From contig JAUCBJ010001103.1 in assembly GCA_032718475.1 (NCBI GenBank), forward strand, positions 1-44,803: a stretch of 44,803 bases of DNA. The letters are read 5' to 3'. The stretch is from Nemertoderma westbladi (lineage: Eukaryota; Animalia; Xenacoelomorpha). The position numbers were made by a program, and so were the translations under genes. Positions 1 to 42,345 of this stretch are shown here, in pieces (the stretch's first letter is position 1; every line of letters starts with the position of its first letter). The notes below the pieces were generated by a model, which worked only from the letters and a program-made list of their open reading frames with translations, did not search any database and was not told where the DNA came from.

Positions 1-877
1 AATCGGTACCACATCGGACCAAATCGGTACCACATTGGACCAAATCGGTACCACATCGGATCAAATGGGTACCATATCGGACCATATGGGTACCACATCG
101 GACCAAATGGGTACCACATTGGACCAAATGGGTACCACATCAGACCCAATCGGTACCAAATCGGACCAAATCGGTATCACATCGGACCTTATGGGTACCA
201 CATCGGACCCAATCGGTACCAAATCGGACCCAATCGGTACCACATCGGACCAAATCGGTACCACATTGGACCAAATCGGTACCACATCGGACCTTATGGG
301 TACCACATCGGACCCAATCGGTACCACATCGGACCCAATCGGTACCACATCGGTACGACATTGGAACAAATCGGCACCACATCGGACCCAATCGGTACCA
401 AATCGGACCAAATCGGTATCACATCGGACCTTATGGGTACCACATCGGACCCAATCGGTACCACATCGGACCCAATTGGCACCACATCGGACCCAATCGG
501 TACCAAATCGGTATCACATCGGACCTTATGGGTACCACATCGGACCCAATCGGTACCACATCGGACCCAATCGGTACCACATCAGTACCACATCGGACCA
601 AATCGGTACCACATTGGACCAAATCGGTACCACATCGGTACCACATTGGACCAAATCGGTACCACATCGGACCTTATGGGTACCACATCGGACCCAATCG
701 GTACCACATCGGACCCAATCGGTACCACATCGGTACGACATTGGAACAAATCGGCACCACATCGGACCCAATCGGACCAAATCGGTATCACATCGGACCT
801 TATGGGTACCGGGCATCGGACCCAATCGGTACCACATCGGACCCAATCGGTACCACATCGGACCACATCGGGGCCAC
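1..877. repeat. Tandem satellite, ~21-bp unit (AATCGGTACCACATCGGACCC/A and variants), truncated by the window start
   Basis: Unit directly visible many times, with recurring variants (CTTATGGGTACC, CGACATTGGAACAAATCGGC) forming higher-order blocks. Confidence 0.95.
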
Positions 878-9647: not shown

Positions 9648-10841
9648 TATATTTTGGCGGTAAATTCAAATCTGTTTTAACATTGAATACCCTACTGTCT
9701 GACTGTACATGAAGAGAGTAAGACTAAATGTAATTCATTGAATCAGAATAAATTATTTCTTATCGGTTTAACTCACTCATCCGTTATTGTTGTTGTTATA
9801 TCCATTCTGGGGCTTCGAGCAGCACGCGAACAACTAAACTGCTGGTTTCCTAGTCTGGGACTTCGAGCAGCTCGTGAACAACTAAACTGGCTGGGTTCCT
9901 ATTCTGGGACTTCGAGCAGCACGTGAACAACTAAACTGGCTGGTTTCCTAGTCTGGGACTTCGAGCAGCTCGTGAACAACTAAACTGGCTGGTTCCCTAG
10001 TCTGGGACTTCGAGCAGCACGTGAACAACTAAGCTGACTGGTTAACTAGAGTCTGGGACTTCGAGCAGCACGTAAACAACTAAGCTGACTGGTTAACTAG
10101 TCGGGGACTTCGAGCAGCACGTGAACAACTAAGCTGACTGGTTAACTAGTCTGGGACTTCGAGCAGCACGTGAATAACTAAGCTGACTGGTTAACTAGTC
10201 TGGGACTTCGAGCAGCACGTGAACAACTAAACAGAACTGTTATTACAGTTGAAGTACTGTAAGTACTACTACAGTAAGAAGTTTACAGTATGAAGTCTAC
10301 TGCTCTAGCTCCTTGACCTTTTAGTACGTACCAACGTACATTATGTAGCACACTGTGTAGAGTTTGTAATGGAAATATTGTAATTCTGTAATTTGAATCA
10401 ACCGCCAAAAATATATCAATTCACTGCATCTTTCTATCATCTATCCACTTGAAATCTACTATTAACATACTAGGTATAAGTGTATAATTGTTATGATTAT
10501 AATGTTCTATACTTTACTGGGATAGAAGTTAAGCCAAATCACCCGACCCGCCCCCCCTCCTCAATTTTCAATTTTGCTGGAAGTCCCAGACCTGTTAACG
10601 AGTTAGCTTAGTTGTTCACGTACTGCTCGAAGTCCCAGACTGGTTAACCAGTCAGCTTACTTCTTCACGTGCTGCTCGAAGCCCCAGAATAGATAAAACA
10701 ACAACAATACCGGATGAGTGAATTAAACCCATAAGAAATAATTTATTCTGATTCAATTAATTACATTAGCAGATTAGTCTTACTCTAGGCCTATTCATGT
10801 ATTCAATGTTAAAACAGATTTAAATTTACCGCAAAAATATA
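9648..10841. mobile_element. Foldback/MITE-like element with long inverted arms containing 49-bp tandem repeats
   Basis: 9648-9900 is the reverse complement of ~10578-10841. The left arm expands into ~9 units of TCTGGGACTTCGAGCAGCACGTGAACAACTAAGCTGACTGGTTAACTAG (9805-10231). Confidence 0.75.
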
Positions 10842-12446
10842 GGATCTGATCTGCCACCCTTTCTGCCTTTGGCCTTTGCAGTATAAATTACAAGTCCTTC
10901 AATCATTTGAATTTCCCGCGCTATAGAGCAGGGTGGCACCTTTTAGGGACTTGTGGCCTAAAGCTGTCAAGTTCTACTACAGTATTATTATTATTATTAT
11001 TATTATTAGCGCTCTTTAATGGTAAAAAATACAACAATGTATACAAAGAAATAAAACACGTTAGAGGGAGACCACCACTAGGCACCAGGCACTTACAGTG
11101 TAGGTTTAAAGTTCACTATACATACAGTAGATTTATGAGTATACATACAGTAGGATGTAGAATTTCGGACGATACAATGAAAACACATGTAAAAACAGCA
11201 ATAACAATTATGAGGAAAAACGGATTTATAAAAATTTTCAGAAATAAAATCATTTCAGCTACACTCACGGACGGTAAGAAATTGGGTATAAGTAAAACTA
11301 AAATTTGGACCATGGATGATATGAACAATAATTAAATTATATCAGATATCAAAGTTACAGAAAGGCATAAAATGTAAGACAGATCTGCAGGTGAAAGTAA
11401 ATTAATTCAGTAGGTACGGTAGGATAATTACGGTACCGGTACAGTTAAATTAAAAAGCCGCTCACAGATCAGACAGCTTTCAGCAACTTTTATACTGTAA
11501 TACCATGGTAATACAGTTTAATAGGGCAGGGGCCAATACACCAGCTGACCAGTACACTGAAAAGTTCCTGGGCAGCTGGGCGCTGAAATTTTACACCACC
11601 TGGTGTACAGGTGTAGTTCCTCCAAGGTATATATATGATTGTCAAATGTATTATATCTTTATTGTTGTTTATGTTGAAATGGCAAATGACTTTAGGACAG
11701 TTCATGATCATGGCTTTATGGAAAGTCTCGTACATTTATTATTATTAAAACAGTGAAATATTAAAACACCATCCAGATGCTCCAGCTCAACCAAGCAACC
11801 AAGGGTAGATCCTATATGGGATTATGGAATATTGACAAAAAGCGCGCCACACAGGTTCTGGTAAAACGAAAAGCGCGCCAGCCATTCACCAAGAAATTTT
11901 GCAATTATTAGGTACCGGGTACTGTCTGACTGTGTTATATTGTAATACATGTCATAATTTATCAGTTTATACTGCAGCAGACCTACTGTACAGTATTAAA
12001 ATATTAAAAGGCGAGCGTAGCGAGCAAAGAAATTTTACAGAAATATTAAGAGTAATACAGTATTAGTCAGATAGGTCAACCGACTGTTTTTAATTACAGT
12101 CAACAGATGTCACTAAATTGCGAGCATAGTGACAAAGAAAATTTTGATTATTGATAGTAACAATGTGTTGGCAAGCTGTTGATTCTGAAATTTGTACACT
12201 ACCCGGTTAAAAAGTACGCATGTGATGGGATTAGTCCTACAATTGCGCCAATAAAAAAAGATAAGTTATTTTCGGTAAAATAAACTTATCATTCGAGGTA
12301 AAGACCCCTAGATCCCTTCCTATAAATGTATAATAACAAACACCTCGAAAAATACAGCTTGCCAACACATTGTTACTATCAATAATCAAAAACTCAGGGG
12401 CTAATAAAATGGCAGCTGGCTTTGAAATTAATACTCCATATCTCAA

Positions 12447-12506
12447 GAACCTGTGGCCTCGTGGTTGTAGTCTCGGCTTCCACCTCGAGGTCCCAGGTTC
12501 GAATCC
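12447..12506 (+). promoter_or_regulatory. tRNA-like internal Pol III promoter (A box 12454-12464, B box 12496-12506), repeated at +412, +824 and +1236
   Basis: TGGCCT(A/C)GTGG and GGTTCGAATCC at tRNA-like spacing, with a CTTCCAC anticodon-like loop between them. Confidence 0.8.
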
Positions 12507-12509
12507 GAC

Positions 12510-12552
12510 ACCACGCTGATGAGACCCAGTAAGGTCGAAACGCGTACGTGGT
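12510..12552 (+). ncRNA. Type I hammerhead ribozyme, copy 1
   Basis: ACCACG-CTGATGA-GACC(CAGTAA)GGTC-GAAA-CGCG-TA^CGTGGT: stem I, conserved core, stem II and palindromic minimal stem III. Predicted cleavage after 12546. Confidence 0.92.
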
Positions 12553-12921
12553 TTGGAGAGATATGAGATATTAATTTCAAGAAAAATTACGCGATTCTGA
12601 AATTTGTACACTACCCGGATAAAAAGTACGCATGTGATGGGATTAGTCCTACAATTGCGCCAATAAAAAAAGATAAGTTATTTTCGGTAAAATAAACTTA
12701 TCATTCGAGGTAAAGACCCCTAGATCCCTTCCTATAAATGTATAATAACAAACACCTCGAAAAATACAGCTTGCCAACACATTGTTACTATCAATAATCA
12801 AAAACTCAGGGGCTAATAAAATGGCAGCTGGCTTTGAAATTAATACTCCATATCTCAAGAACCTGTGGCCTAGTGGTTGTAGTCTCGGCTTCCACCTCGA
12901 GGTCCCAGGTTCGAATCCGAC

Positions 12922-12964
12922 ACCACGCTGATGAGACCCAGTAAGGTCGAAACGCGTACGTGGT
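12922..12964 (+). ncRNA. Type I hammerhead ribozyme, copy 2
   Basis: Identical to copy 1. Confidence 0.92.
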
Positions 12965-13333
12965 TTGGAGAGATATGAGATATTAATTTCAAGAAAAATT
13001 ACGCGATTCTGAAATTTGTACACTACCCGGTTAAAAAGTACGCATGTGATGGGATTAGTCCTACAATTGCGCCAATAAAAAAAGATAAGTTATTTTCGGT
13101 AAAATAAACTTATCATTCGAGGTAAAGACCCCTAGATCCCTTCCTATAAATGTATAATAACAAACACCTCGAAAAATACAGCTTGCCAACACATTGTTAC
13201 TATCAATAATCAAAAACTCAGGGGCTAATAAAATGGCAGCTGGCTTTGAAATTAATACTCCATATCTCAAGAACCTGTGGCCTAGTGGTTGTAGTCTCGG
13301 CTTCCACCTCGAGGTCCCAGGTTCGAATCCGAC

Positions 13334-13376
13334 ACCACGCTGATGAGACCCAGTAAGGTCGAAACGCGTACGTGGT
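13334..13376 (+). ncRNA. Type I hammerhead ribozyme, copy 3
   Basis: Identical to copy 1. Confidence 0.92.
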
Positions 13377-13745
13377 TTGGAGAGATATGAGATATTAATT
13401 TCAAGAAAAATTACGCGATTCTGAAATTTGTACACTACCCGGTTAAAAAGTACGCATGTGATGGGATTAGTCCTACAATTGCGCCAATAAAAAAAGATAA
13501 GTTATTTTCGGTAAAATAAACTTATCATTCGAGGTAAAGACCCCTAGATCCCTTCCTATAAATGTATAATAACAAACACCTCGAAAAATACAGCTTGCCA
13601 ACACATTGTTACTATCAATAATCAAAAACTCAGGGGCTAATAAAATGGCAGCTGGCTTTGAAATTAATACTCCATATCTCAAGAACCTGTGGCCTAGTGG
13701 TTGTAGTCTCGGCTTCCACCTCGAGGTCCCAGGTTCGAATCCGAC

Positions 13746-13788
13746 ACCACGCTGATGAGACCCAGTAAGGTCGAAACGCGTACGTGGT
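13746..13788 (+). ncRNA. Type I hammerhead ribozyme, copy 4
   Basis: Identical to copy 1. Confidence 0.92.
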
Positions 13789-15856
13789 TTGGAGAGATAT
13801 GAGATATTAATTTCAAGAAAAATTACGCGATTCTGAAATTTGTACACTACCCGGTTAAAAAGTACGCATGTGATGGGATTAGTCCTACAATTGCGCCAAT
13901 AAAAAAAGATAAGTTATTTTCGGTAAAATAAACTTATCATTCGAGGTAAAGACCCCTAGATCCCTTCCTATAAAAGAAAATTTTAACATTTATAGCTAGT
14001 AGGCCAACCAACTGTTTTTAAATACAGAATAGGCCCTATGATTATGGATTAAATTGAGAGCGTAGCGAGCATGATAATGTGGTTTTATATTGGTTTGAAC
14101 AATTAAACAACTCATGTAGGTTAATAAACAGATACAGTAGTCTAATATGCAATAGGAATTTTGAAATAATGGATATGGGTAGGATATAATTATAAACGTG
14201 GGCGAAGCGAGTGAAAAGTTTTAACTCTTTTTAAACATATGGTACTGATATAATTTCAAGTAGGATATAAAGTGGATATATATCCAAAAGTGGATATATT
14301 GCCAGTGCCAGTGGCAGTGCTACTCAGCTACTGCAGTACTATTACTTGACATCCATCTGTCCATATGAGCGCCAGGATCCTCATTGCGCGCCACACGACC
14401 CTGTTGCTCCGCGCCAGGATCCTTAATGCGCGCCACACATGTTGAGCAAACTCTACATAAATTCCAACCTGGGGGTAGATTATAAAGACTTACAGACTTA
14501 ATACATTTGACAATCATATATATACCTTGGAGGAACTCCACCAGGTGGTGTAAAATTTCAGCACCAGGTAGATGTCGAAGTTGCGATATTCTATCATGAT
14601 AGAGCTATTCTTCCATCAAATAGAGATGGATGTCACTGTGAAGATGGGTATTCATTGATTAGTTCAACATTTGGGCTGTGAAGATTTATGTTCTCCATTG
14701 TTTTAATGCCCCTGACTTATGAATGCCCCTGCCAAGCCAATGATATATGTATCACTCTCAGAAATGCTAGTTAACCATGCTTCATTTGATCAGGTGCTCT
14801 ATCATATTTGCAATGATGTACTATTGAGACACAAGTGGTACATACAGTCATGCTCAATGCTCTCCACTACTATACAGTATTTTTGTTCTACCTACTCCAC
14901 CTGAATCCACATTAATGGCAACTTCCACCTCATATCCACCCATAGTGCACATACTCCACCCAACATACATCTTAATGTTGTTTGTCTGTTAATAATGCAA
15001 CAGTTCCCAATCATAACACATATTATTCTTTGTTACATTAACTTGGTAACTGTCAGACTGTTCAATTTTGGGGAATTCCTGTGAAACTTTAGTCTGCAGC
15101 GGGTTTGGAGCAATACCAAGGGGAATTCCAGACCCAAGCTACTTACACCAATAAGAAGATGTTGGAAGGTAGGCTAATAATATGTGGGGCGAGCCACGAA
15201 GTGAGTGAGCCTTAGCGTAGGGGTACCATTAATCAACCTGTCGTTCTGTTGCGTTTTTTTTCAGTATTTTATTTTAAACGTTAATAACTCGGCCAATCCT
15301 TGATGAAATCTATCCAAACTTGGTACACATGTTGTTTGGCAAAAGTTTGAAAATTTTCCAAGTAGAATTTGCGTGGGGTCTTCGTGCAGCATCAGTGTAA
15401 CTGTTATTGCAGTTATAATAAATTTATTTATCCAAATTTAAAATGCGTTAAATTATTATTACTGTAGGATAAATCAGCTGGTTTTTCTGACAAATTTTGC
15501 AATACATTGGAGTTGTCTGCATGTACCATGTGTACCGGTACTGTCAGGCTGTACTCAATCCCTGAATCGAGAATCCTGCAATCAGTCAATACTGCAATAC
15601 TGGTCAGCCGGTACCATACACTGCAGACATGCCATATCATGTAATCTAATTAACCCCGGCAACCCTTGCGGTGATTAAAGTTTAGGCCTAATTAGCCCAG
15701 TACCGGCACCGGTAATACTGTAATAATAATATAATAGTTTAGATAGTTACCGCTAATCATTCAGTCATTGCTGCATTGGCACGGTACACCGTACAGCCGT
15801 ATTGCTGTACTGCCGTTGTCAGTTGTAGTGCGCACCGTACTGCCGTAGGTACCACC

Positions 15857-23761: not shown

Positions 23762-24438
23762 GGGAAGAACATAAAAAATCTTAGATTTTTGCTTGATCAA
23801 ATGTGGCGTCGAATGCTGGACATTGACATTGACATATAGATTATCTATCATTACTAATATCAATATTAATCATAACAACACATTTTGATGCTAACAAATA
23901 CAATAGTATTTGTAATTTCTCTGAATGCTATTTTTAATGCAACCACGGCGACAATAAACCGAGAGGATCATAGATTCGAGCTGAGTTTCAGCAGAGTAAG
24001 TGCAATACAAAAGACTGCAAGTATTTAAATTTATGCAAAAAAACCGTAAGTCAACAAGACTTGCGGTTTTTTGTCATCAGAATTTAATGAGGATTTCACA
24101 TCTGGAAATGGTTTGGCGAGATCTGTTGTATGCATTTTCAATAATTACCAGAAGTAGCTCCGATGAGAGAAAGCTTGTAATTAAACTATTGTTATTAATT
24201 CCATTAGTCACCTGAGGTCAACCCACCCTAACCTAACTGTTTAATATGAGAATGCCTTCTTAGGTTGTTTCGAGTTATCACTGTCTACCGGTCTGACCGT
24301 CAAGATGTAAATTTAGACAGAGCCAGATAAGATAATAGCAATTGTCTGGAATATGTGATTATTTGACGTTAATTAACGTTAAGGTAATTAAGCGTTAATT
24401 ATTATAATTATGTTTTTATCACTGTCAGTTGTTTGTAA

Positions 24439-24723
24439 TTTTTTAACGTTAAACATACAATATATTTTGACGATCCAAACTGATTGTCAGTAATATGTCA
24501 TTTTTTAACGTTAATCATACAATATATTTTGACGATCCAAACTGATTGTCTGTAATATGTCATTTTTTAACGTTAAACATACAATATATTTTGACGATCC
24601 AAACTGATTGTCAGTAATATGTCATTTTTTAACGTTAAACATACAATATATTTTGACGTCCCAAACTGATTGTCAGTAATATGTCATTTTTTAACGTTAA
24701 ACATACAATATATTTTGACGATC
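24439..24723. repeat. 62-bp tandem repeat x ~4.6, downstream of the BEL integrase
   Basis: Units start at 24439, 24501, 24563, 24625 and 24687. Confidence 0.9.
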
Positions 24724-24884
24724 AAAATACCTACCGTTTAAAATTAACGTTAATTTGCGTTAATTTTTAACGTTAAAAGGGCGGCCAAACTAACGTTATT
24801 TATATGTATTATTAACGTTAATAATTAACGTTGGCATTGTCAGAAAATAACGTATATTAATGCATTATTAACGTTAAATTGTTT

Positions 24885-26090
24885 GCAGGGCAGTTCTAAT
24901 AAACAAAGGCGTCCGATGGGTTGGTTGAAATAGTGTACCTTTGGTTTAGGTGTAGCTCTCCAAATAGCCAGTTCAACTGAGCGTACCAAACCATCATTCC
25001 CTTGATGGATTTCTATTATCCGGCCTGTTTCCCAGTTTTTTCTAGGTTGGTCTTGATCCACTAAGAGAACAATATCGCCGACTGACACATTTGGTTCTGA
25101 GCTGAACTGACAGTAAGTAGTGTCTTTCAAAATGTATAGCAAATCGACGGGATAATAATTGCATCATTTGCCAGGTGCGTCTCAGCAGCTCATCACCGTC
25201 CTGCGGTGTGGATTTCGGTAACATGGTTACTGGATTTCTTAACATAAAATGGGATGGTGTTAGTGGCTCCATCGCTTGTGGATTAGATGAAACAGGTAAG
25301 AGAGGCCTATCATTTAAATAACTCGCTATTTCCTCTAAGAGAGTTCGGAGTAGCTCATCAGTTAGATAGGCTTTACATGGAATAATATGGTGGAACGCAA
25401 TTTTCGTACTCTTATTTAGTCGTTCCCAACTTCCACCCCACCAAGGCGCATCGGCTGCGTTAAACGTCCATGTTGATGCCGATACCCTTAGATGTTCTTC
25501 TAGCTGGTGATCGTTTCAATCGGCTATGAATTTAGTGATTTCCTTGTTGGCGCCCACAAAATTCGTTCCCTGGTCAGATCTCATAGTGCGGCTAGTACCA
25601 AATCGAGCGATTTGTCTTCTCAGGCAAAGGATAAAACTTTTCATTGACATATCATTAACCATATCCAAATAAATGGCTCGAAAAGTCATGCAAACGAAGA
25701 TGACACCCCATCTTTTCACCATTGTACGGGCGCGCTTGACTTCGAAAGGTCCGAGGAGATCTACACCAGTGTGGGTGAACGGGGGTTGGTAACATTCGAC
25801 TCGTTCCCTAGGGAGTGCCGCTTCTAGTTGAGTCATCGGTTTGCTATAAATCCTTTTGCAAGGTATACAGTTTCGTAATATTTGGTTGAGAGCTGCGCGG
25901 GGGTGTACCAGGTAGTATCGGGTTCTGATCTCGCTTAATATATGTTCCCTCCTGGCATGATAGAGACGATAATGAACGTCCTGTATCAACTTGGTCTGAA
26001 ATTCCGGGTCGAATATTAGTATGGGAAACATGGTGTCTCTAGAGATCGGAGCGTTAGTCAGGCGACCGACCTCCAACTCGAATCAAACCA
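24885..26090 (-). pseudogene. int: BEL/Pao integrase (HHCC zinc-binding region, DDE core, DUF5641-like C-terminus), disrupted
   Basis: FTHTGVDLLGPF, KRWGVIFVCMTFRAIYLD, SDQGTNFVGA, APWWGGSWERLI, PLTPSHF and W.TGRIIEIHQGNDGLVRSVEL. An in-frame stop near 25516 and a frameshift near 25100. Confidence 0.92.
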
Positions 26091-26187
26091 TTTATCATTA
26101 TACTGGAGAATTTATCCGCTAATGGAGTTAGAGGGTCAATACTGAGTTGATTATATTTCTCAGGCTTCTCCAGTCTTTGTGAAACTC

Positions 26188-27009
26188 TTAATAACTGTTC
26201 AATATAACTGCGAATTTTCTTATGTTCTCGATGGTCGCGGTGTCTATTACTGTGGCTCCTGTCCGGACAGCGGATTGGTGGAAGGCAGAAATAATGATAT
26301 GAATGCGTATGATTCTCTCCTTGATGCCATAGAAGAGAGAGGGGGTGTTGTCTACATTGGGATCCCTTAAGATAGCTTCAAAGCCGGATATCTGTTTAGT
26401 AAATCCGGTTTGAAATCCTCTCAGGGTCTTTCCCACCTTGGAGATATTAGTGGGGTCTGCTGGTACCTTCAACTCCGTTAGTTCGTCAGAGGTGGCAGAA
26501 TGTAGTGGAAAAAACTTATCCATTGAAGGATAACTGTAGTATTGCAGTACAGTCTGTTTCATCTCCGTAATGGTCATTGAAAGTATCTGTACTTTCAAAC
26601 CCCTTTCGGAGGCTCTATAATTGTCAATGGCCCTTATTAGACTGATTAATAAACCTGGGGAAGGGGCCATTAATGGGTCTGTCCCTATCGGTAGGTTTAA
26701 TCCTGTGGCTGTGTCAACTCCCGTCCGGTCTAAGTCGGAAGTCGCAGTCACTCGCGGTTGGTCCGTTTGTGTTTCGAGGCCAGTAGTGGACTGGTCAGTT
26801 CGGGTGACAGGGGGTGGTCGATCTAATTTAGAGGGCATAATAAGATTTCCTAATTGATTGGAACCAGGGCGCTCTGGCTCGGGCAATTCTCTAGTCGGGG
26901 ATCTGTCTGAGTCAGAATGCATTGGTATCGCAGTCACATCAAGATTGGAAGTTTGGTCACTAAGGGAACTGTCTGAAGCACTTTTATTAGCACTTGAGCG
27001 ATAAGACAT
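26188..27009 (-). CDS. 273-aa N-terminal (gag-position) ORF of an internally deleted BEL/Pao element
   Basis: ATG-initiated ORF ~100 bp upstream of the integrase on the same strand. Homologous to the ORF at 43657. Confidence 0.6.
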   Translation of the reverse strand: MSYRSSANKSASDSSLSDQTSNLDVTAIPMHSDSDRSPTRELPEPERPGSNQLGNLIMPSKLDRPPPVTRTDQSTTGLETQTDQPRVTATSDLDRTGVDTATGLNLPIGTDPLMAPSPGLLISLIRAIDNYRASERGLKVQILSMTITEMKQTVLQYYSYPSMDKFFPLHSATSDELTELKVPADPTNISKVGKTLRGFQTGFTKQISGFEAILRDPNVDNTPSLFYGIKERIIRIHIIISAFHQSAVRTGATVIDTATIENIRKFAVILNSY

Positions 27010-34452: not shown

Positions 34453-35567
34453 TCCGCTGTAGTGGCCAATAGAGAATAAAAAATTACTGTTGTAACTTTA
34501 GCTCAACAAATTGAGAATAGATTACTACAGTAATTAGTGCACTGATTGGCTCTTTAGGTTTTAAAAATTAAAGTAAATTTAAAGTATACCAACTTTTACA
34601 CTATGACCTATAAATAAAGTCTTAGGAAAAACTGATTTTGTTTACAGAAATCAATGTTGATCGAATTGTTTGATTTAATTTACAGGTAAATTTACAGTAC
34701 AATATAGTGTAATAATAATTCAGAATCATAATGGTCCTTCAATAACAGCCGATCCTCAACTGGCAGCAGGGGTACAGGGCATGACCCAGCAGATGAGCTG
34801 CACAGCCAATGGTGGGTCATGTGCGCCAGAGTAGATATGGGTGATGGGCCTCATATCTGACTCCACTGCGACACCCATGGAATGGCAAACCAGGGTGTGG
34901 TATTTTCCCCGAGAGCTGACTCGGTAAAAAAAGCACCCCCCAACCCTCATTATGGATTGCATTAGTAATGCGGAGGTCCGACCACTAGAGACCAGTGGAA
35001 TTACCGGACACAATCGGCCTCACAGGCGTCAGTTATCTCCTGAATGGCTGCCTGTCTCACCCCCTACTGGAGAGAGAGCAGCCAACAATTCTTTGAGTCC
35101 CTTTCCTGATGACCTTTCTGGCCCAAACAGGGAGGCCAGATTGTGAGGGTGAGAGGGATTCTGGAGTTGGAGGATACTCCCATGTTCCACCCCGACCAAC
35201 AAAGCCATTGGTGAATCTGAGGCAAGTCACTTGGCCTCAGTAAACACCCTAACACTCGGGTCCCCAATGCGACAAGGTGAGCTGAATGCCTTGGCAGATA
35301 AGCTTTCTCTTAGCGCAGTGGGTGTTCAAGAGCACCGATTGCAGACTGGACAGATTGATGAGGTTCTGATTAAGGACATGAAGGGCGGTTGGCGACTCGC
35401 CCTCGCGTCAGCAGACGATAGTGGCAATGGTGGAATTGGTCTATGATGAATCCAACTGCACAATATGCAGCATTGGACAAAATAGACCAAATCTCTAACC
35501 GCATCATCCGTTTCCACTTCTCATGTTCTGGAAGACTGGCTAATATAGGCCTACAATGTAAATAAGA

Positions 35568-35734
35568 CAATATGATAATGCTCTCCATAGCGAAAAATAT
35601 CAACCGGCCCTATTGGGGCTCGAACCCGGTACCTAGGTTTCAAACTTCTGGTTATCATCAGCCGGGTGAGTGTACTTAAGCTACCAGACCGGATGAATAT
35701 TTCGCTATGAAGTGGGAGATCATATTATCATATC
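35568..35734 (-). mobile_element. Small tRNA-like element with inverted flanks and an internal hammerhead, inside the RTE
   Basis: The minus strand reads CCGGTCTGGTAGCTTAAG (A-box-like)...GGGTTCGAGCCC (B box)...TAGGGCCGG. Flanks ATATGATAAT..CATAGCGAAAAATAT and ATATTTCGCTATG..ATTATCATAT are imperfect inverted repeats. Confidence 0.7.
35624..35667 (-). ncRNA. Type I hammerhead ribozyme (stem II closing pair mutated to U-U)
   Basis: The minus strand reads ACCCGG-CTGATGA-TAAC(CAGAA)GTTT-GAAA-CCTAGG-TA^CCGGGT: 6-bp stem I, intact core and palindromic stem III. Confidence 0.78.
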
Positions 35735-38253
35735 AGTCTCAAACAGACTACAGCGGCCAAGAATGCAGTTAAGGCTGCATCTAGGTCCCTGAGCAGGCAG
35801 TACTCTGTTAATCTACAGGAGCTAATAAACCAACAGGTTGATGCCATCAATGATGCTGACGACAGCAGGAAATCATCCCTGGCATGGAAATCGATCAACT
35901 TGCTTACTGGGCGGAAAAACCAACCAACGACCAAGGTTAAGGCTGAATCACCAGCCGATCGCCTCAATGGTTGGAAGGACCACTTTGAAAAGATCCTCAA
36001 TAATGACAGGGTATTGCCTGATAACTTTATAGAAGTAAAATTGTCTGAGTCTGTACCTTTTGGTCTGTACCCATATTTCCATTGGCGATATCGCCTTTGC
36101 AGAAGTGAAGGCTGCTGCAAAGAGCATTAAGACCAATCGTTCCTGCAGATTAGATGGAGTTCCCCCTAGGTCTTTAAAATACCTGAGTGTTTAAAGCTTA
36201 TCTATCCCATCATAGTAGATATGTACCGAACAACAAGAGTCCCACAAGAAATGAAAACAAATAAGTTGGTGCCAGTTCCCAAGAAGGGCAACCTAACACT
36301 CTATGGTTCTTTTCGGGGAATCTCATTTCGGGGCATCTCGATTGCTGCAAAGCTATTAGGATTCTATTAAATCGCATCAGGGATCCCATTGAGAGACTGC
36401 TCCATGGAAATCAGAATGGGTTCCGTAAAGGTCGTGGGACCATGGAGCCCATTTTGGCACTTAGAAGGATAATTGAAGAGTTATCAAAAAAGAAAGACAG
36501 GCATCTGGCTGTTAACTTTGTTGACTTTTTCAAGGCCTTTGATTCAGTCTCTCGCTCACGTATGTTCAGCATACTTTCATTATATGGGATTCCTGATGAA
36601 ATTATTGCAGCAATCAGATCAGTATACGATGGTTCGACAACATTTGTATCTACTGTTGACGGTGACACAGAACCATTTGAAGTGTTATGGGGCGTCCTCC
36701 AGGGAGACACACTTGCACCATTCTTGTTCATAATTGTGGTCGACTATGTTCTACGCATGTCCTTAGATCATCATAATGATGATGGGGTGATGATAACTAC
36801 TGGCTCCAGAAGTCGAGGAAATCCTGCCAAGTACCTAACTGATCTAGACTTTGCTGATGACTTAGGAGTACTCTCAGAATCACTAGAGGGAGCCCAAAGG
36901 CTCCTCAGCTCATTAGAACAGGCTGCATCTAGTGTTGTCTTTTTATTAACTCCAGAAAGACCAAAATTTTGACAGTTAACTTTGAAACTTTGAAAGTCCT
37001 CAGCAAGTCTCTGATCGGATGAGCATAAGCTCAAAGGATGTTATGCTTGAGCAAGTGGACGACGTGGACGACTGGGATCATGGATTCGGAAGTCAGGTGA
37101 GGACCTTCGAATACGTAAGGGAAAGGCATGGGCAGCCTTGAATAGGCATTCCAGGATTTGGAAGTCACCTAGAATTAATCGTAAACTTAAGGTCCGATTA
37201 TTTAGAGCAGCAGTAGTTCCACTACTCCTCTATGGGAGTCCATGCTGGGCTCTAACTGCTGAGGACACCAAATCTCTGGATGGCACATTCACAAGAATGC
37301 TACTCCGCGTTCATTATGTCAAGTTCAATGCACACATCTCCAACCAGACATAATATGACATTGGAGGTGTCTCATTGGTTCCCCCAAGCTTGACACTAGA
37401 ACAAAATCGCCTCCGCTTTGCAGGACATTGCTTTCGCCGTGAGGACCAGCCAGTGCATAATCTTGTACTTTGGCAACCTCATGGAGTGAATAAGCATGGT
37501 GGACAGCCATGACTTTCTTGAGACGCATCTTAAAGGACACTGCTTTGAAGATGCGGATAATCTAGCAAATGTCATGGGTGATAGGGAGTTGTGGCGGCGC
37601 AATGTTGTCGACAAGCCGGCACAGCATTCTTAAAAATGCAGCTGCAATGCAGCATGCCAATCCTAGTAGTAGTATAACAGCCGATTGCGTCCAGATAAGA
37701 AGAAAACCAACCGCATTTGTTTCACATTCCAAATTTTAAACATCAAATGGGCGAGAATGGTTTGTTAAATACTGGGAATCATTTGATAAGGGGTAGAAAA
37801 AGTACTCGATTTGTGGACCTAATTTGTACACACAGACAACTAATGAAATTTGTAATTAAATTTTTACAATCCAAATATAAAATTAACTGTAACAAGCAAT
37901 ATAACTCGGCTAGTAGAAGTGGGTATTATTCCGTTCAACTTCTGTCACTAAACAACTGATACTCTAGCAATATTTTATTATGTGACCTCAAATTAAATAT
38001 TTCGTCCCACGTCTACTAATCGTACAGTAGTCCAATAAACATACAATTTGGAAAAATACATTAAGTTGGGAAAAATGCGAAATTATAGATGATTTAAGCT
38101 TTTGAGACAATTACTACTGTAGAACCATATAGAGAATTACAATACGCCACGCCATAAACGTTCGCTTCTAAATGACATGACTATCAATGGTTTCCAAGGA
38201 AACAAACCTTTTAATAGACGAACTCAAGGTATAAAGACCGGAATATGTAGTCT

Positions 38254-38925
38254 CTAGGGTTCTCCAGGTTTGTCCGTGGGTCCACCAGGTTGGTCCGTGT
38301 AACCGTCAGCTTGGTACGTGGGTCCTCCAGGTTGGTCCGTGGGTCCTCCAGCTTGGTCCTCTATCGGTTGCGGGTAAGTTTCCTCCCCCTGATTAGAGCT
38401 GGGGGCATTGGAGGTCACACAGGAGTCTCCGCCAGGTGTCCTCTCGCCATCTTGACACGAAGAGTGGGCAATAGAGGCCTCGAGGGAGTATAAAAGAAAT
38501 AAAATGAAACCTGAAAGGTAAACGAGAGATTCAAAAAGAGTCCTATCCCTTCCAAGAAAACTAAAACTCACAACAAAAACCATACTAGCGATGAAATAGA
38601 AGACACCGACTACGGCAGCGTAGATCATCTCAATATACATCCAGTTGAGAGTAAGTTTGGAGCCCGATATAAAGAAAGTAAGTAAGAGGGCAGTTCCCAA
38701 CCATGCGGTTACAGAGACAAATAGGAAGAAGTGACTCATCCAGTCAGGTGAGAGTGATGCCGCCATAACCCATACAGGTAATCCCACGACCAGTTCTATA
38801 ATTTTGTAAATTCCAGAAGTCGATATGGCGTAGCGAATATTGATACCACCCTGACGCAGTGGAGGTTCAGCTGATCCATCCGTTGTGTGGGAAGCTCGGA
38901 CACCCGCTGGATCTGGGAAACTCAT
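38254..38925 (-). CDS. MARVEL-domain four-transmembrane protein (CMTM/MAL/plasmolipin-like), 223 aa, single coding exon
   Basis: NIRYAISTSGIYKIIELVVGLPVW fits the MARVEL N-terminal pattern. Four hydrophobic segments, W.YIEMIYAAVVGVFYFIAS, and a C-terminal GGPTDQP repeat tail. Confidence 0.8.
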   Translation of the reverse strand: MSFPDPAGVRASHTTDGSAEPPLRQGGINIRYAISTSGIYKIIELVVGLPVWVMAASLSPDWMSHFFLFVSVTAWLGTALLLTFFISGSKLTLNWMYIEMIYAAVVGVFYFIASMVFVVSFSFLGRDRTLFESLVYLSGFILFLLYSLEASIAHSSCQDGERTPGGDSCVTSNAPSSNQGEETYPQPIEDQAGGPTDQPGGPTYQADGYTDQPGGPTDKPGEP

Positions 38926-39968
38926 CGATGAGTGGAAAAAAACGTAAAAATATAGAACAATTATAAGGGATAAAATTTAATCGCAATTTTAGGCTGCAGA
39001 CAGACCTGCCTATGGCGAATTAAATTAATGTACTGACTTCCAAATTTTTTTTTCAAATTTTTTTTTTCTCTTTCATCTAGAGCAGATTTTTATCAAGATT
39101 CCAAATATGAAAACCGTTTAGTAAGATCTGTCTTACTTCTCTGGATATGTCTGTCTGTGTATTAAAAAAAACAGGTTACAACTTCTGAAAATAAAGCAAA
39201 GAAAACAAAGGAGAAGCATTTTAAGTCAAAAAAGTAAATTTGGCTCTAGCTGCTGAGGGGTGTCAAAATGTTTTTTTTTAAAACATTACAATTCAGTAAA
39301 GTCCACCCAAAATAGATATTATACTTATTTTCTACTTATTAGCTTTTTGGTGCAGTAAGCATTTCCAAATGTTGACTTCCAAGCCAGTAACCCGAGAGGG
39401 TAAATTAATTATTAACCCTATTAGTACCGGGCTATAAAATGTTGTACAAATACCGGGGGGGGGGGGGGGGTCATATTGACCACCCCCCCCCCCCCCCCCC
39501 CGTCTAAAATCTACAAATTTTTACGAAAACGTCTGATTTTTGTTTGTACGTAGGTATTACTAGTCTTGATCCGACCGAAAAAAAAATTTGAAAAAATGTA
39601 CTGGGGTGGTTAAATATTGCAGCACCAAAATTACAAGTAGTGCACAATTTTCACAAAATTTGAAAGTTAAATTTTTCGGCTAATTGTTTTTCAATACAGG
39701 TTTTCTGGGGCGCAAAATACATTGGAAAATATTTAAAAATGATAGGATTACTATAAATGGCTGTTTAGTCCTCTCTGCGTAGGAAAAAAATGTAAAAAAA
39801 CAAATAACCAGCACTTTTCAGTTAGAACACAAAATTTTTAATTCATTTATACGATGCTATAAATTCATGTTTTCAGGTTTTCGAGGGCGCTGATTCTAAT
39901 GGAATACATTTCTAATATGCCAGATCATTGCTACTTGTATTTTTGGCGTCGGATTCAGGACCCTCATA

Positions 39969-40258: not shown

Positions 40259-41778
40259 TTTGCTGAATTGCCCCGTTATTTTTATTATCTTTTACATTAA
40301 AATACTCTGTAGTTGATTTAATAAGTGTAAGAGACCGTATTATTGCTGTATCGGTGTTTTTAGAGGATCTAAGACCTATTTCCTCCGTATGTGTACTGTG
40401 AAAGGCATATTTTATGATTCTATGGCAATTCGTGACGCAAAGGGGTGATAGCTACTCTTGAACAGTAGTTACTATGACTACGGTTAACAGCTGACATTCA
40501 TACGTGTTGATTTCCTTTGTTCTACGGCGTCTCTCAGTTCAGTCAGCCAATGAGAGCGTTTTTGTGGCTCCTTGTACAGAAAATTTCCGAGAAATGACGC
40601 AATGCCTATGTGCAGTGTTTACATTCAGTCCTAAGCCAAAGAAAGAACGGCTTGGAAGTATTTTGTGCTTTACTGTTTTTTAGTCGTACACTAGTAGGTT
40701 TAATTATAAAGGGCATATATCCTTTAACTACCTACCTAACGACTACTGATGACTGATCATACATACTGACTGCTGAAACATTGTAAACTCATAACTATCA
40801 GTGTTTTCATTGTTGTTTTATACTGCTATTTACTGTCAGTTCTTCATAACATGGTTGATGAATTATTATATTTGGAATAACGATAAATAACCCCGAAACC
40901 CAATATTCTTGATATACCGAAGGTAAGAGAGAAAGGTTACCAATAACGATTGTGACTTATGTTAAAGTGGTTTGAAGTGAATCTAATGTTATTTGATAGA
41001 CCCTACATGATTCAGTCTGTGTTCCTTTTATATGTGACTAAAATCAGTGAAGATTGGCAAATTAGTGTGCAGTATTGTGCAGCATTGTGTATGAGTGAGT
41101 CTGTTAAAGAAGCATTCCTAAAGAATGCGCCATATATGTGAATTATAATTAAACCATATCGTTGTGAGTAGTTTAAGTCATAACTCTGTTTATATAGATA
41201 AAGCGCCACGTCCTAAAGGAACTGTTAATATTCCCGAAGGTGAATAATATTGTCAGAGATTATATAATACTGTCAGTCGAATAATACATTAGGCTTACAT
41301 AGCAACAAAATTAAACCGTCGAACCCAATCTCCCGGGAATCTCCAGCGGGTGAATGGTCGCGCACGGATTGGTTTCGACTAGTGTAGTGAATCAAATACG
41401 TGTCATATACTAAAAACTGATTTAATATCTAGAAGACATCTTAGTTTGGTGGGTTAAACTGCCAAAGGTCTAAAAGCGCGAACATTAAAGGATATAGCTT
41501 CTTTGTTGCAGTAAGCAATAAAGTTGAAAGTACCGGTCAACCGGTAAACCTGAACGGTACACCTGTAGGTCAGTAGGCCTAACTGTTCTAACCGGTACTG
41601 CCGTATAAGTACACTAGTATTATTCGATTTGATTGTTGTATACCGGTAGGCTGTTTAGGGGATTAGGGATTGATCACCCCTTATACCTTTATATGGTTTA
41701 CTTATCTCTGTCAAGTTTTATTTATTTGTAGGCCAGTATTGAACAGAAGGCGTGTAAACCTGATCAGATTGTACAGAC

Positions 41779-42345
41779 AATTTGTAGGCTGAGCTGTTGT
41801 CTGATTGCTGTTAAGTCTGAACGGATTACAGTGTGTGTAGAGCACTTGTCCGATTAAGTACGGTTAGGAAGTAGGGGCAGCCAATGCGGTAAGGTAAACC
41901 CCCAACTAAAGAATAAGTCGCACTACTGGGTTAGAGCGCATACTCCCTAATCATTTCGGAGTCTGCATGTCCTGTAGTTTATTTAGGCTTGAGAGTAGTC
42001 TGCCATCGTTTAGTCTGTACTTTGTTTGTGTAAGTCTGTACGGGTAGCGTATAATTTTATTTAGATAATTTGTAGGCTGGATAGTTGTCTGGCTGTTATT
42101 AAGTCTGAACGGATTGCCGCGTGTGTAGATCATCTGTCCGATTAAGTACGATTAGGCAGTAGGGGCAGCGAACGCTGTAAGGTAATCCCCCAACTAAAGA
42201 ATAAGTCGCACTACTGGGTTAGAGCGCATACTCCCTAATCATTTCGGAGTCTGCATATACCGTAGTTTGTTTAGGCTTGATAGTAGTCTGTCAGTGTTCG
42301 GTCTGTATTTTGTTTGAGTAGTTTGTACGCATAGCGTAATATTTA
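41779..42345. repeat. 288-bp direct tandem duplication upstream of the 43657 ORF
   Basis: Units start at 41779 and 42067 (AATTTGTAGGCTG). An internal ~68-bp block is identical. Confidence 0.85.

What the first reader, a model, noticed from the sequence alone, without database searches (positions are those of the whole stretch)
12181..13974. Tandem tRNA-promoter + hammerhead ribozyme array: a candidate circular-RNA retrozyme
Seen: four near-identical 412-bp units plus a partial one. Each has A box TGGCCTAGTGG and B box GGTTCGAATCC, immediately followed by a complete type I hammerhead (CTGATGA / GACC-GGTC stem II / GAAA / GTA cleavage site). Stem I extends into the B box (TCCGA pairs with TTGGA). 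I saw only two substitutions between copies. Known: metazoan non-LTR retrozymes are tandem repeats of a few hundred nt with type I hammerheads that self-process into linear and circular monomers, and the Schistosoma Sm-alpha SINE-like repeat is a precedent for a Pol III promoter next to a hammerhead. Inference: this is a young, possibly active, protein-free mobile RNA family producing 412-nt monomers or circles.
Basis: partly seen in the sequence, partly recalled or inferred. Interest (0 to 1): 0.9.

Follow-up and report, generated by a model that had tools for sequence, protein, structure and literature searches.

The report
Ribozyme repeat array with insertion scars
A 412-base repeat with a hammerhead ribozyme motif behind a tRNA-like promoter motif sits here as four and a third near-identical copies between a 12-base target duplication and a short inverted piece, so it was likely copied into this animal chromosome from RNA, possibly a circle; the design is already known from blood flukes.

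Summary
In detail: 4 x 412 bp plus 146 bp at 12181-13974, two substitutions, and in each full unit A/B boxes followed by a type I hammerhead. Corrections: one substitution hits unit 1's A box; helix III is a 2-bp palindrome, so cleavage likely needs two hammerheads; each unit has a T4 135 nt after the cut, which a Pol III monomer must read through. Public contigs show an abundant family whose contigs often leave the unit near the same two A-rich registers. Best reading: a non-LTR retrozyme of Sm-alpha design, inserted by two-sided target-primed reverse transcription, likely by a Penelope-like enzyme and possibly from a circular RNA. Cleavage, transcription, circles and the mobilising enzyme are not shown. 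Class, promoter-plus-hammerhead layout and Penelope link are in print, so this is a new member of a known kind with an unusually clean footprint.

The parts
12134..12145 (+). left copy of the 12-bp target-site duplication (A-rich then T4)
   Evidence: family D11, 100% identical to 13973-13984; 0 of 5000 random position pairs at the same spacing shared 12 or more letters (max 10)
12142..12179 (-). 38-bp inverted piece of the unit (reverse complement of 12354-12391); its outer 4 bases are shared with the target duplication; one extra T at 12180 joins it to the array
   Evidence: pairs I1-I4, 100% complementary; sequence
12181..13974 (+). tandem array, 4 x 412 bp + 146 bp; last 2 bases shared with the right target duplication
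12422..12444 (+). 5' arm of a 23-bp stem that closes the tRNA-like + hammerhead module (partner 12558-12580; repeated in each unit)
   Evidence: pair I15, 87% complementary; pair probabilities near 1 at 7 of 8 sampled positions in the circular fold
12454..12506 (+). tRNA-like internal promoter motif of unit 1: A box 12454-12464 (with private substitution 12460), B box 12496-12506
   Evidence: A at 12460 in nearly all laid depth of run X1 (554,476 of 554,532)
12504..12557 (+). type I hammerhead of unit 1; predicted cut after 12546
12866..12918 (+). A box (12866-12876) and B box (12908-12918) of unit 2; same at +412 and +824; anticodon-loop-like CTTCCAC between them
   Evidence: A+B pattern in 6 of 20000 shuffles of the unit; ARAGORN pseudogene-level call tRNA-?(Gly|Trp) only at lowered threshold, control 12 of 500 shuffles
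12916..12969 (+). type I hammerhead of unit 2: helix I 12922-12927/12959-12964 with extension 12916-12920/12965-12969, core 12928-12934, helix II 12935-12938/12945-12948, palindromic helix III 12952-12957, GUA, predicted cut after 12958
13328..13381 (+). type I hammerhead of unit 3; predicted cut after 13370
13740..13793 (+). type I hammerhead of unit 4; predicted cut after 13782
12959..13370 (+). predicted 412-nt monomer between two cut sites (candidate circle)
   Evidence: circular fold -101.9 kcal/mol against -79.8 +/- 5.5 for 100 shuffles, 0 of 100 as stable; minus strand folds as well (-104.2)
13093..13096 (+). only T4 run of the unit (also 12269, 12681, 13505, 13917), a possible Pol III terminator 135 nt after the cut
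13973..13984 (+). right copy of the 12-bp target-site duplication
   Evidence: family D11
12003..14071 (+). host degenerate minisatellite (about 109-bp unit) that the insertion interrupts: intact unit 12003-12111, split unit 12112-12145 and 13985-14047
   Evidence: families D3, D4; empty-site alignment score 83.5 against mean 36.2, max 58.0 of 2000 shuffles

Best explanation
This is a young tandem array of a 412-base non-coding repeat with a tRNA-like promoter motif and a type I hammerhead motif in each unit, flanked by a 12-base target duplication and a short inverted piece, likely inserted in one event by reverse transcription of its RNA, probably by a Penelope-like enzyme working on a predicted circular template. 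Steps: (1) shown: array, motifs, duplication, inverted piece, interrupted host repeat, abundant family. (2) inferred: Pol III starts near the A box of one unit and reads, past a leaky T4, into the next unit; two neighbouring hammerheads swap their palindromic helix III and cut after GUA, freeing a 412-nt monomer with the promoter at its 3' end; a host ligase closes it; the lone hammerhead in the circle cannot build a stable helix III, so the circle persists. (3) inferred: an endonuclease/RT supplied in trans nicks an AT-rich target on both strands 12 bp apart; one T-ended DNA strand primes at the unpaired A-run near register 12326 and copies about 4.35 turns; the other primes at the A-run near register 12391 and copies 34 bases, giving the inverted piece. 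A multi-unit insert keeps a promoter upstream of a full unit, so the new locus would itself be a source.
For: Anatomy matches published metazoan retrozymes: repeats of a few hundred bp, GC under 50%, type I hammerhead, target duplication longer than 4 bp (PMC7229834) and helix I 6 bp, helix II 4 bp, short palindromic helix III working as a dimer (PMC4209133). The double-hammerhead fold of a two-unit transcript costs nothing (-157.0 kcal/mol, equal to the unconstrained minimum; two single hammerheads without helix III -156.2). Target duplication and inverted piece are beyond chance and the empty site re-forms a host repeat. Neither end lies at the cut site or at a poly(A) tail; both lie in A-runs that are unpaired in the circular fold (unpaired probability 0.9-1.0) with 2 and 4 bases shared with the target. 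In run X3, 348 of 1321 laid contigs fit only in part; the two largest listed piles of loose ends are at 12325 (29 contigs, median 215 loose letters, agreement 0.47) and 12386 (20 contigs, median 206, agreement 0.41), within about 10 nt of this insertion's two priming registers. An inverted 5' piece and a 30-40-bp tail are described Penelope features (PMC8557442), and a purified Penelope-like protein nicks AT-rich DNA on both strands and starts at two internal RNA sites (PMC11167929). All units share alleles that are in the minority genome-wide (at 12300 the other base holds 83% and 89% of depth in X1 and X3; at 12393 70% and 87%), as expected of one template.
Against: No transcription, cleavage or circle was observed. 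Rfam score is below the family threshold. In a Xenopus study only 1 of 9 predicted dimers cleaved in vitro (bioRxiv 2026.07.22.740005). T4 terminated human Pol III very efficiently in vitro, though read-through occurs in vivo (PMC3141230); the scarcity of T-runs in the unit is no more than chance (P 0.59). The purified Penelope-like protein started at sites not homologous to the target, used uncleaved linear RNA, and its two start sites bound a 30-40-bp tail, whereas here there is microhomology and the registers are about 61-65 nt apart. A 12-bp duplication, a T4/A target and a 5' inversion also fit LINE twin or dual priming (PMC2837659). No Penelope-like element was seen among 14 window ORFs scanned, and the genome could not be searched. 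The pile at 12325 partly reflects a 3-base insertion allele at 12321: its consensus follows the unit for about 11 more letters, so those junctions lie at about 12325-12335; only 6 loose-end places of X3 were listed, 513 rows over all runs were not shown. Shared alleles also fit a homogeneous linear source or later DNA-level expansion.
Confidence: 0.55

Rival explanations
1. Same family and same RNA-primed insertion, but the template was a linear, uncleaved multimer of at least four to five units, copied by a Penelope-like or LINE enzyme with twin or dual priming; circles, if made, are by-products.
For: A Penelope-like protein used unprocessed RNA as its main substrate in vitro; multimeric RNAs persist in axolotl; twin and dual priming give inverted pieces inside target duplications of 7-20 bp; a decayed LINE with RT is in the window.
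Against: Four or five hammerheads would have to stay uncut in the multimer, the setting where they are predicted to be most active; no poly(A) or simple-repeat tail at the 3' end.
Confidence: 0.22
2. A short copy (one and a fraction units) was retrotransposed, making the duplication and inverted piece, and the array then grew in place by unequal crossing-over or slippage.
For: Near-identity of the units fits recent DNA-level expansion as well; the 2026 preprint favours local amplification for arrays; the locus is already a minisatellite.
Against: Each of the two substitutions is confined to one unit, with no shared pattern between neighbours; this is weak with only two sites.
Confidence: 0.15
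3. (Not exclusive of the others.) The A and B boxes are a relic; unit-length RNA comes from Pol II or other read-through, while Pol III, if it starts, stops at the T4 and makes only a roughly 240-nt RNA cut into about 100 and 138 nt.
For: T4 at +135 in every unit; T4 was an efficient terminator in vitro; a review holds that retrozymes lack promoters and are read through (PMC7761336); the tRNA-like part refolds as a hairpin, not a cloverleaf.
Against: Both boxes fit the recalled consensus at tRNA spacing (6 of 20000 shuffles); no variant at 5% or more lies in the boxes or hammerhead in X1 or X3 apart from this locus's own change, while the listed common variants lie in the A-rich linker (too few sites to be significant); Sm-alpha appears to be Pol III-transcribed.
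Confidence: 0.35
4. An ordinary satellite spread at the DNA level, with a dead or accidental hammerhead.
For: Rfam score below threshold; no expression data.
Against: Complete core, three helices and GUA, 0 of 100 shuffles; target duplication and inverted piece point to target-primed copying.
Confidence: 0.05

Closest known systems
Sm-alpha / Sj-alpha SINE-like hammerhead retroposons of Schistosoma (PMC6765202 passages; PMC2770079 passages; the 1998 primary paper was not held)
   Same: tRNA-derived Pol III promoter followed directly by a type I hammerhead, in tandem units, so that the cut leaves the promoter at the 3' end and only multi-unit copies can propagate; high copy number.
   Different: Sm-alpha derives from tRNA-Gln(TTG); here the loop reads as Gly(TCC)-like (weak). 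No sequence comparison with Sm-alpha could be run. The host was not identified, so independence from the trematode family is inferred from the different tRNA, not tested.
Metazoan non-LTR retrozymes (Cervera and de la Pena 2020, PMC7229834, results and discussion read, supplement unreadable; Li et al. 2026, bioRxiv 10.64898/2026.07.22.740005, parts 1-3 of 5 read)
   Same: Tandem non-coding units of a few hundred bp, low GC, type I hammerhead in every unit, self-paired predicted circle, target duplication longer than 4 bp; meets the preprint's definition of a putatively active element (two or more consecutive units with complete hammerheads).
   Different: Carries internal promoter boxes, which a 2020 review says retrozymes seem to lack (PMC7761336). 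Cleavage and circles were shown for coral, mussel and axolotl, not here.
Penelope-like element insertions (PMC8557442 passages; PMC11167929 main text; PMC4209133 passages)
   Same: Partial tandems, inverted piece at the 5' end, 30-40-bp extra segment, two internal start sites, AT-rich target, type I hammerhead.
   Different: No ORF; canonical rather than minimal hammerhead; microhomology at both junctions; start registers about 61-65 nt apart; no sequence link to a pLTR tested.
L1 twin/dual priming insertions (PMC2837659 passages)
   Same: Inverted 5' segment inside a 7-20-bp target duplication at a T4/A site, primed on A-rich RNA.
   Different: No poly(A) tail; template is a tandem or circular RNA; priming at internal registers that recur in the family.

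Membership tests
Metazoan non-LTR retrozyme | Tandem units of about 150-450 bp, GC under 50% | tested here: met
   412-bp units, 4.4 copies; 163 G+C of 412
Metazoan non-LTR retrozyme | Complete type I hammerhead in two or more consecutive units | tested here: met
   4 of 4 full units; Rfam HH9 26.6 bits, below gathering score 52
Metazoan non-LTR retrozyme | No protein coding, no LTR/PBS/PPT layout | tested here: inconclusive
   Only a 146-codon stop-to-stop frame on the minus strand per unit, not scanned against Pfam; no LTR layout seen in the repeat map
Metazoan non-LTR retrozyme | Target-site duplication longer than 4 bp | tested here: met
   12 bp
Metazoan non-LTR retrozyme | Multi-copy, dispersed family | tested here: met
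   3297, 1321 and 91 contigs laid in X1, X3, X5; many with unlike flanks
Metazoan non-LTR retrozyme | Self-cleavage of transcripts | not testable with these tools
   Fold predictions only
Metazoan non-LTR retrozyme | Expressed as linear and circular monomer RNA | tested here: inconclusive
   One self-closing 441-nt contig in a run only guessed to be RNA; tandem DNA gives the same contig
Sm-alpha-like SINE | tRNA-derived A and B boxes directly upstream of the hammerhead | tested here: met
   tRNA origin itself only weakly supported
Sm-alpha-like SINE | Transcription by Pol III | not testable with these tools
   T4 at +135 is a complication
Sm-alpha family proper | Sequence homology to Sm-alpha, tRNA-Gln origin, trematode host | not tested
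   No Sm-alpha sequence available from the tools; the loop sequence points to a different tRNA
Penelope-mobilised element | Inverted 5' piece / 30-40-bp tail and internal start sites | tested here: met
   38-bp inverted piece; loose-end piles near two registers
Penelope-mobilised element | Start site not homologous to the cut target | tested here: not met
   2 and 4 shared bases at the two junctions against the in vitro finding in PMC11167929; one locus only, and A/T-rich matches of this length can be chance
Penelope-mobilised element | Homology to the pLTR of an autonomous element in the same genome | not testable with these tools
   No genome held; none among 14 window ORFs

The most novel reading that the evidence does not exclude
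A Pol III-driven circular-RNA retroposon outside the schistosome family, whose insertion footprint records a Penelope-like enzyme rolling more than four times round a 412-nt RNA circle after priming at two fixed unpaired A-loops; a second, unrelated tRNA-like/hammerhead fusion 22 kb away would mean that hammerhead repeats captured tRNA promoters more than once in this genome.
Probability: 0.3. Interest if true: 0.62.

Novelty: new member of a known kind. Interest (0 to 1): 0.38.

Why it matters
How animal retrozymes are transcribed and which enzyme inserts them are stated as open in the papers read. This family offers both handles in one 412-nt unit: candidate internal promoter boxes and a clean single-event footprint with mapped priming registers. 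A genome-wide junction census plus a simple dimer transcription assay could separate circle from linear template and Penelope from LINE machinery. The element class and layout are already described, so the gain is a good test case, not a new kind of element.

Tried and rejected
No whole genome is held, so no genome-wide search for copies or Penelope-like partners. Rfam at gathering level: 0 matches; mir-31, mir-7386, mir-1502 weak matches are hairpin artefacts. ARAGORN default: 0 genes. Run X4 (RNA is a guess, organism B) holds one 441-nt contig at depth 13.8 that returns on itself by one unit; low-level tandem DNA gives the same, so it is not taken as a circle. The right junction and an empty allele were not examined in reads; the one contig over the left junction (X3, 12007-12169, no differences) has only 24 letters beyond the duplication, short of the 31 needed to count as bridging. 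Pattern B box + hammerhead core: 0 in viral contigs; 8 loci in metagenome contigs, all 8 rejected on inspection as prokaryote-like sequence, 3 of them after ordinary tRNA genes, none tandem or like the unit. T-run depletion as a sign of Pol III selection: not significant (P 0.59; A-run excess P 0.04). Unit against the rest of the window: no hit better than E 0.2, so no shared tail with the window's LINE. Host placement: the MARVEL-like ORF had no homologue among 1017 candidates; RT relatives at 43-69% identity, the few named ones from a fish, a ctenophore and a sea cucumber, give only 'animal'. My first hammerhead scan missed the second hammerhead through a lazy pattern; redone. Papers PMC10886601 and PMC8490949 (passages) added nothing. 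Literature searches listed no paper, by title or abstract start, on junction footprints of animal retrozymes or on Pol III-promoter hammerhead repeats outside Schistosoma; subscription papers, Repbase and the supplement of PMC7229834, which may show target duplications, were not seen.
Full report
Observation. The array is real: 12181-13974, period 412, four full units and 146 bp, with two substitutions, at 12460 and 12619. Each full unit has a B box, an A box 42 nt upstream and, 10 nt after the B box, a type I hammerhead; predicted cuts fall after 12546, 12958, 13370 and 13782. The core pattern occurs 4 times and never in 100 shuffles. Rfam aligns all four to Hammerhead_HH9 at 26.6 bits, E 6.8e-4, under the gathering score of 52; nothing in the window passes a gathering score. 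The 12460 change lies in unit 1's A box and is private to this locus.

The ribozyme. Helix I is 6 bp plus a 5-bp extension into the B box, helix II 4 bp with a 6-nt loop, helix III the palindrome ACGCGT before GUA. This is the canonical metazoan form, described as poor alone and active as a dimer (PMC4209133, passages). In a two-unit transcript the double-hammerhead fold has the same energy as the unconstrained minimum, -157.0 kcal/mol; in the ensemble the swapped helices have probability about 0.14. The monomer folded as a circle is more stable than 100 of 100 shuffles (z -4.0), keeps helices I and II and leaves helix III open; the minus strand folds equally well, so stability alone does not pick a strand. 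A 23-bp stem closes the promoter-like and hammerhead module. These are predictions; only 1 of 9 predicted Xenopus dimers cleaved when tested.

The promoter. The box consensus is recalled, not from a call. The A+B pattern arose in 6 of 20000 shuffles of the unit and occurs in the window only in units 2-4. The segment is not a tRNA gene; a lowered ARAGORN threshold gives a Gly/Trp-like pseudogene, as do 12 of 500 shuffles. One T4 lies 135 nt after each cut. T4 stopped human Pol III efficiently in vitro, but read-through of canonical signals occurs in vivo (PMC3141230, passages). Because both ends of the insertion map beyond the T4 (about +192 and +257 from the cut), whatever RNA was copied had passed it, so either the T4 leaks or another polymerase made the template (inference).

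A 12-bp direct repeat flanks the whole insert (12134-12145, 13973-13984) and a 38-bp inverted piece of the unit (complement of 12354-12391) sits just inside the left copy. None of 5000 random position pairs shared 12 letters (max 10), and removing the insert restores a unit of the surrounding degenerate minisatellite (score 83.5; 2000 shuffles max 58.0). The forward array shares 2 bases with the right duplication and the inverted piece 4 bases with the left one; both junctions fall in A-runs unpaired in the circular fold. This geometry is what two nicks 12 bp apart, each priming on the sense RNA, would leave.

The family. No genome was available. Of 12 runs listed, 7 hold the stretch or part of it, in 5 studies; I laid 4. 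X1, X3 and X5 (organism A, three samples; one may be the window's source) gave 3297, 1321 and 91 contigs. Summed depth over the unit is 0.37-0.76 million in X1 against 25.8 in the quietest flank bin; the tool warns this is no copy number and overlapping short contigs inflate it, so I infer only hundreds to thousands of copies. In X3, 348 contigs fit in part; the two largest listed piles of loose ends are at 12325 (29) and 12386 (20), with long and heterogeneous continuations, against about 0.4 per position if spread evenly. The first pile is shifted by a 3-base insertion allele, so those junctions lie at about 12325-12335; most loose-end rows (513) were not shown. Joints from the inner end of the inverted piece (12179) to other starts in the unit (12280 in X5, 12313 in X1 and X3; sides of only 30 and 21 letters) suggest that the same inverted piece recurs at other loci. 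All units here share alleles that are in the minority family-wide (12300, 12393).

Mechanism. I favour transcription across units, dimeric self-cleavage, ligation to a circle, and insertion by two-sided target-primed reverse transcription with a Penelope-like enzyme (0.55). Circles as templates for tandem cDNA, with Penelope-like elements as candidates, is the published hypothesis (PMC7229834; preprint). Inverted 5' pieces and 30-40-bp tails are Penelope features (PMC8557442), and a purified Penelope-like protein cuts AT-rich DNA on both strands and starts at two internal sites (PMC11167929). Against: that protein needed no homology to the target and preferred uncut linear RNA; LINE twin or dual priming gives the same outline (PMC2837659); one locus cannot separate a rolled circle from a linear multimer (0.22) or from later local expansion (0.15). 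The 14 window ORFs scanned include BEL/Pao-like integrase pieces and a LINE-type RT but no Penelope-like protein was recognised.

Comparison and novelty. Tandem units of a Pol III promoter followed by a hammerhead are the described layout of Schistosoma Sm-alpha (PMC6765202), which derives from tRNA-Gln (PMC2770079). Tandem type I hammerhead repeats making circles are the non-LTR retrozymes. A review says retrozymes seem to lack promoters (PMC7761336), so a second promoter-bearing family is a modest addition; eight literature searches listed no other such family and no junction study, within the limits of the library and an unread supplement. Earlier unchecked notes of this scan report tRNA-promoter retrozymes and two-sided priming footprints in other animal genomes; they came after my reading was recorded, were not tested here and are not counted as support, but they suggest the pattern is recurrent. 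The host could not be placed beyond 'animal'.

Verdict. Observation confirmed; interpretation partly supported; new member of a known kind; interest 0.38.

Noticed in passing
window 35562-35733, minus strand: A second, unrelated type I hammerhead (core 35661-35655, 6-bp helix I, weak helix II, palindromic 8-nt helix III, GUA) lies between an A-box-like motif (35683-35674) and a B-box-like motif (35626-35616) that overlaps helix I, followed by T5 and closed by a long imperfect inverted repeat; it sits at a deletion junction inside a decayed LINE, with no flanking direct repeat of 6 nt or more. Rfam HH9 19.7 bits, E 0.018 in a narrowed search; fold z -3.5; the descriptor hit 4 of 200 shuffled windows. 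Copy number untested.
   Followed up: partly
window 35260-37353, plus strand: Decayed non-LTR retrotransposon: endonuclease-like start broken off near 35560, RT (Pfam RVT_1, E 6.5e-18) and DUF6451 pieces with stops and frameshifts.
   Followed up: partly
window 24840-26377, minus strand: Fragments of a BEL/Pao-like LTR retrotransposon (integrase zinc finger, rve, DUF5641; the family label is recalled).
   Followed up: no
window 38254-38976, minus strand: Uninterrupted ORF of about 222 aa with a sub-threshold MARVEL match (E 5.5e-6) and a repetitive tail; no homologue found at E 0.001.
   Followed up: partly
window 12256-12377 as laid in run X5: One 600-nt contig at depth 512 differs from the unit by a cluster of eight T-to-C changes within about 50 nt: a diverged subfamily or a copy of a hyper-edited antisense RNA.
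   Followed up: no
window 12190-12564 as laid in runs X1, X3, X5: Joints going back 252, 308, 332 and 370 nt suggest shorter unit variants or rearranged arrays in the family.
   Followed up: no
window 1-871, 9806-10688, 24423-24791, 41775-42338: Other tandem repeats of 21, 49 (with an inverted copy near 10575), 62 and 288 bp; none carries a hammerhead by the descriptor scan.
   Followed up: no
window 11808-11891 and 11948-12087: The flank is itself made of multi-copy repeats (summed depth up to 16,800 in X1).
   Followed up: no
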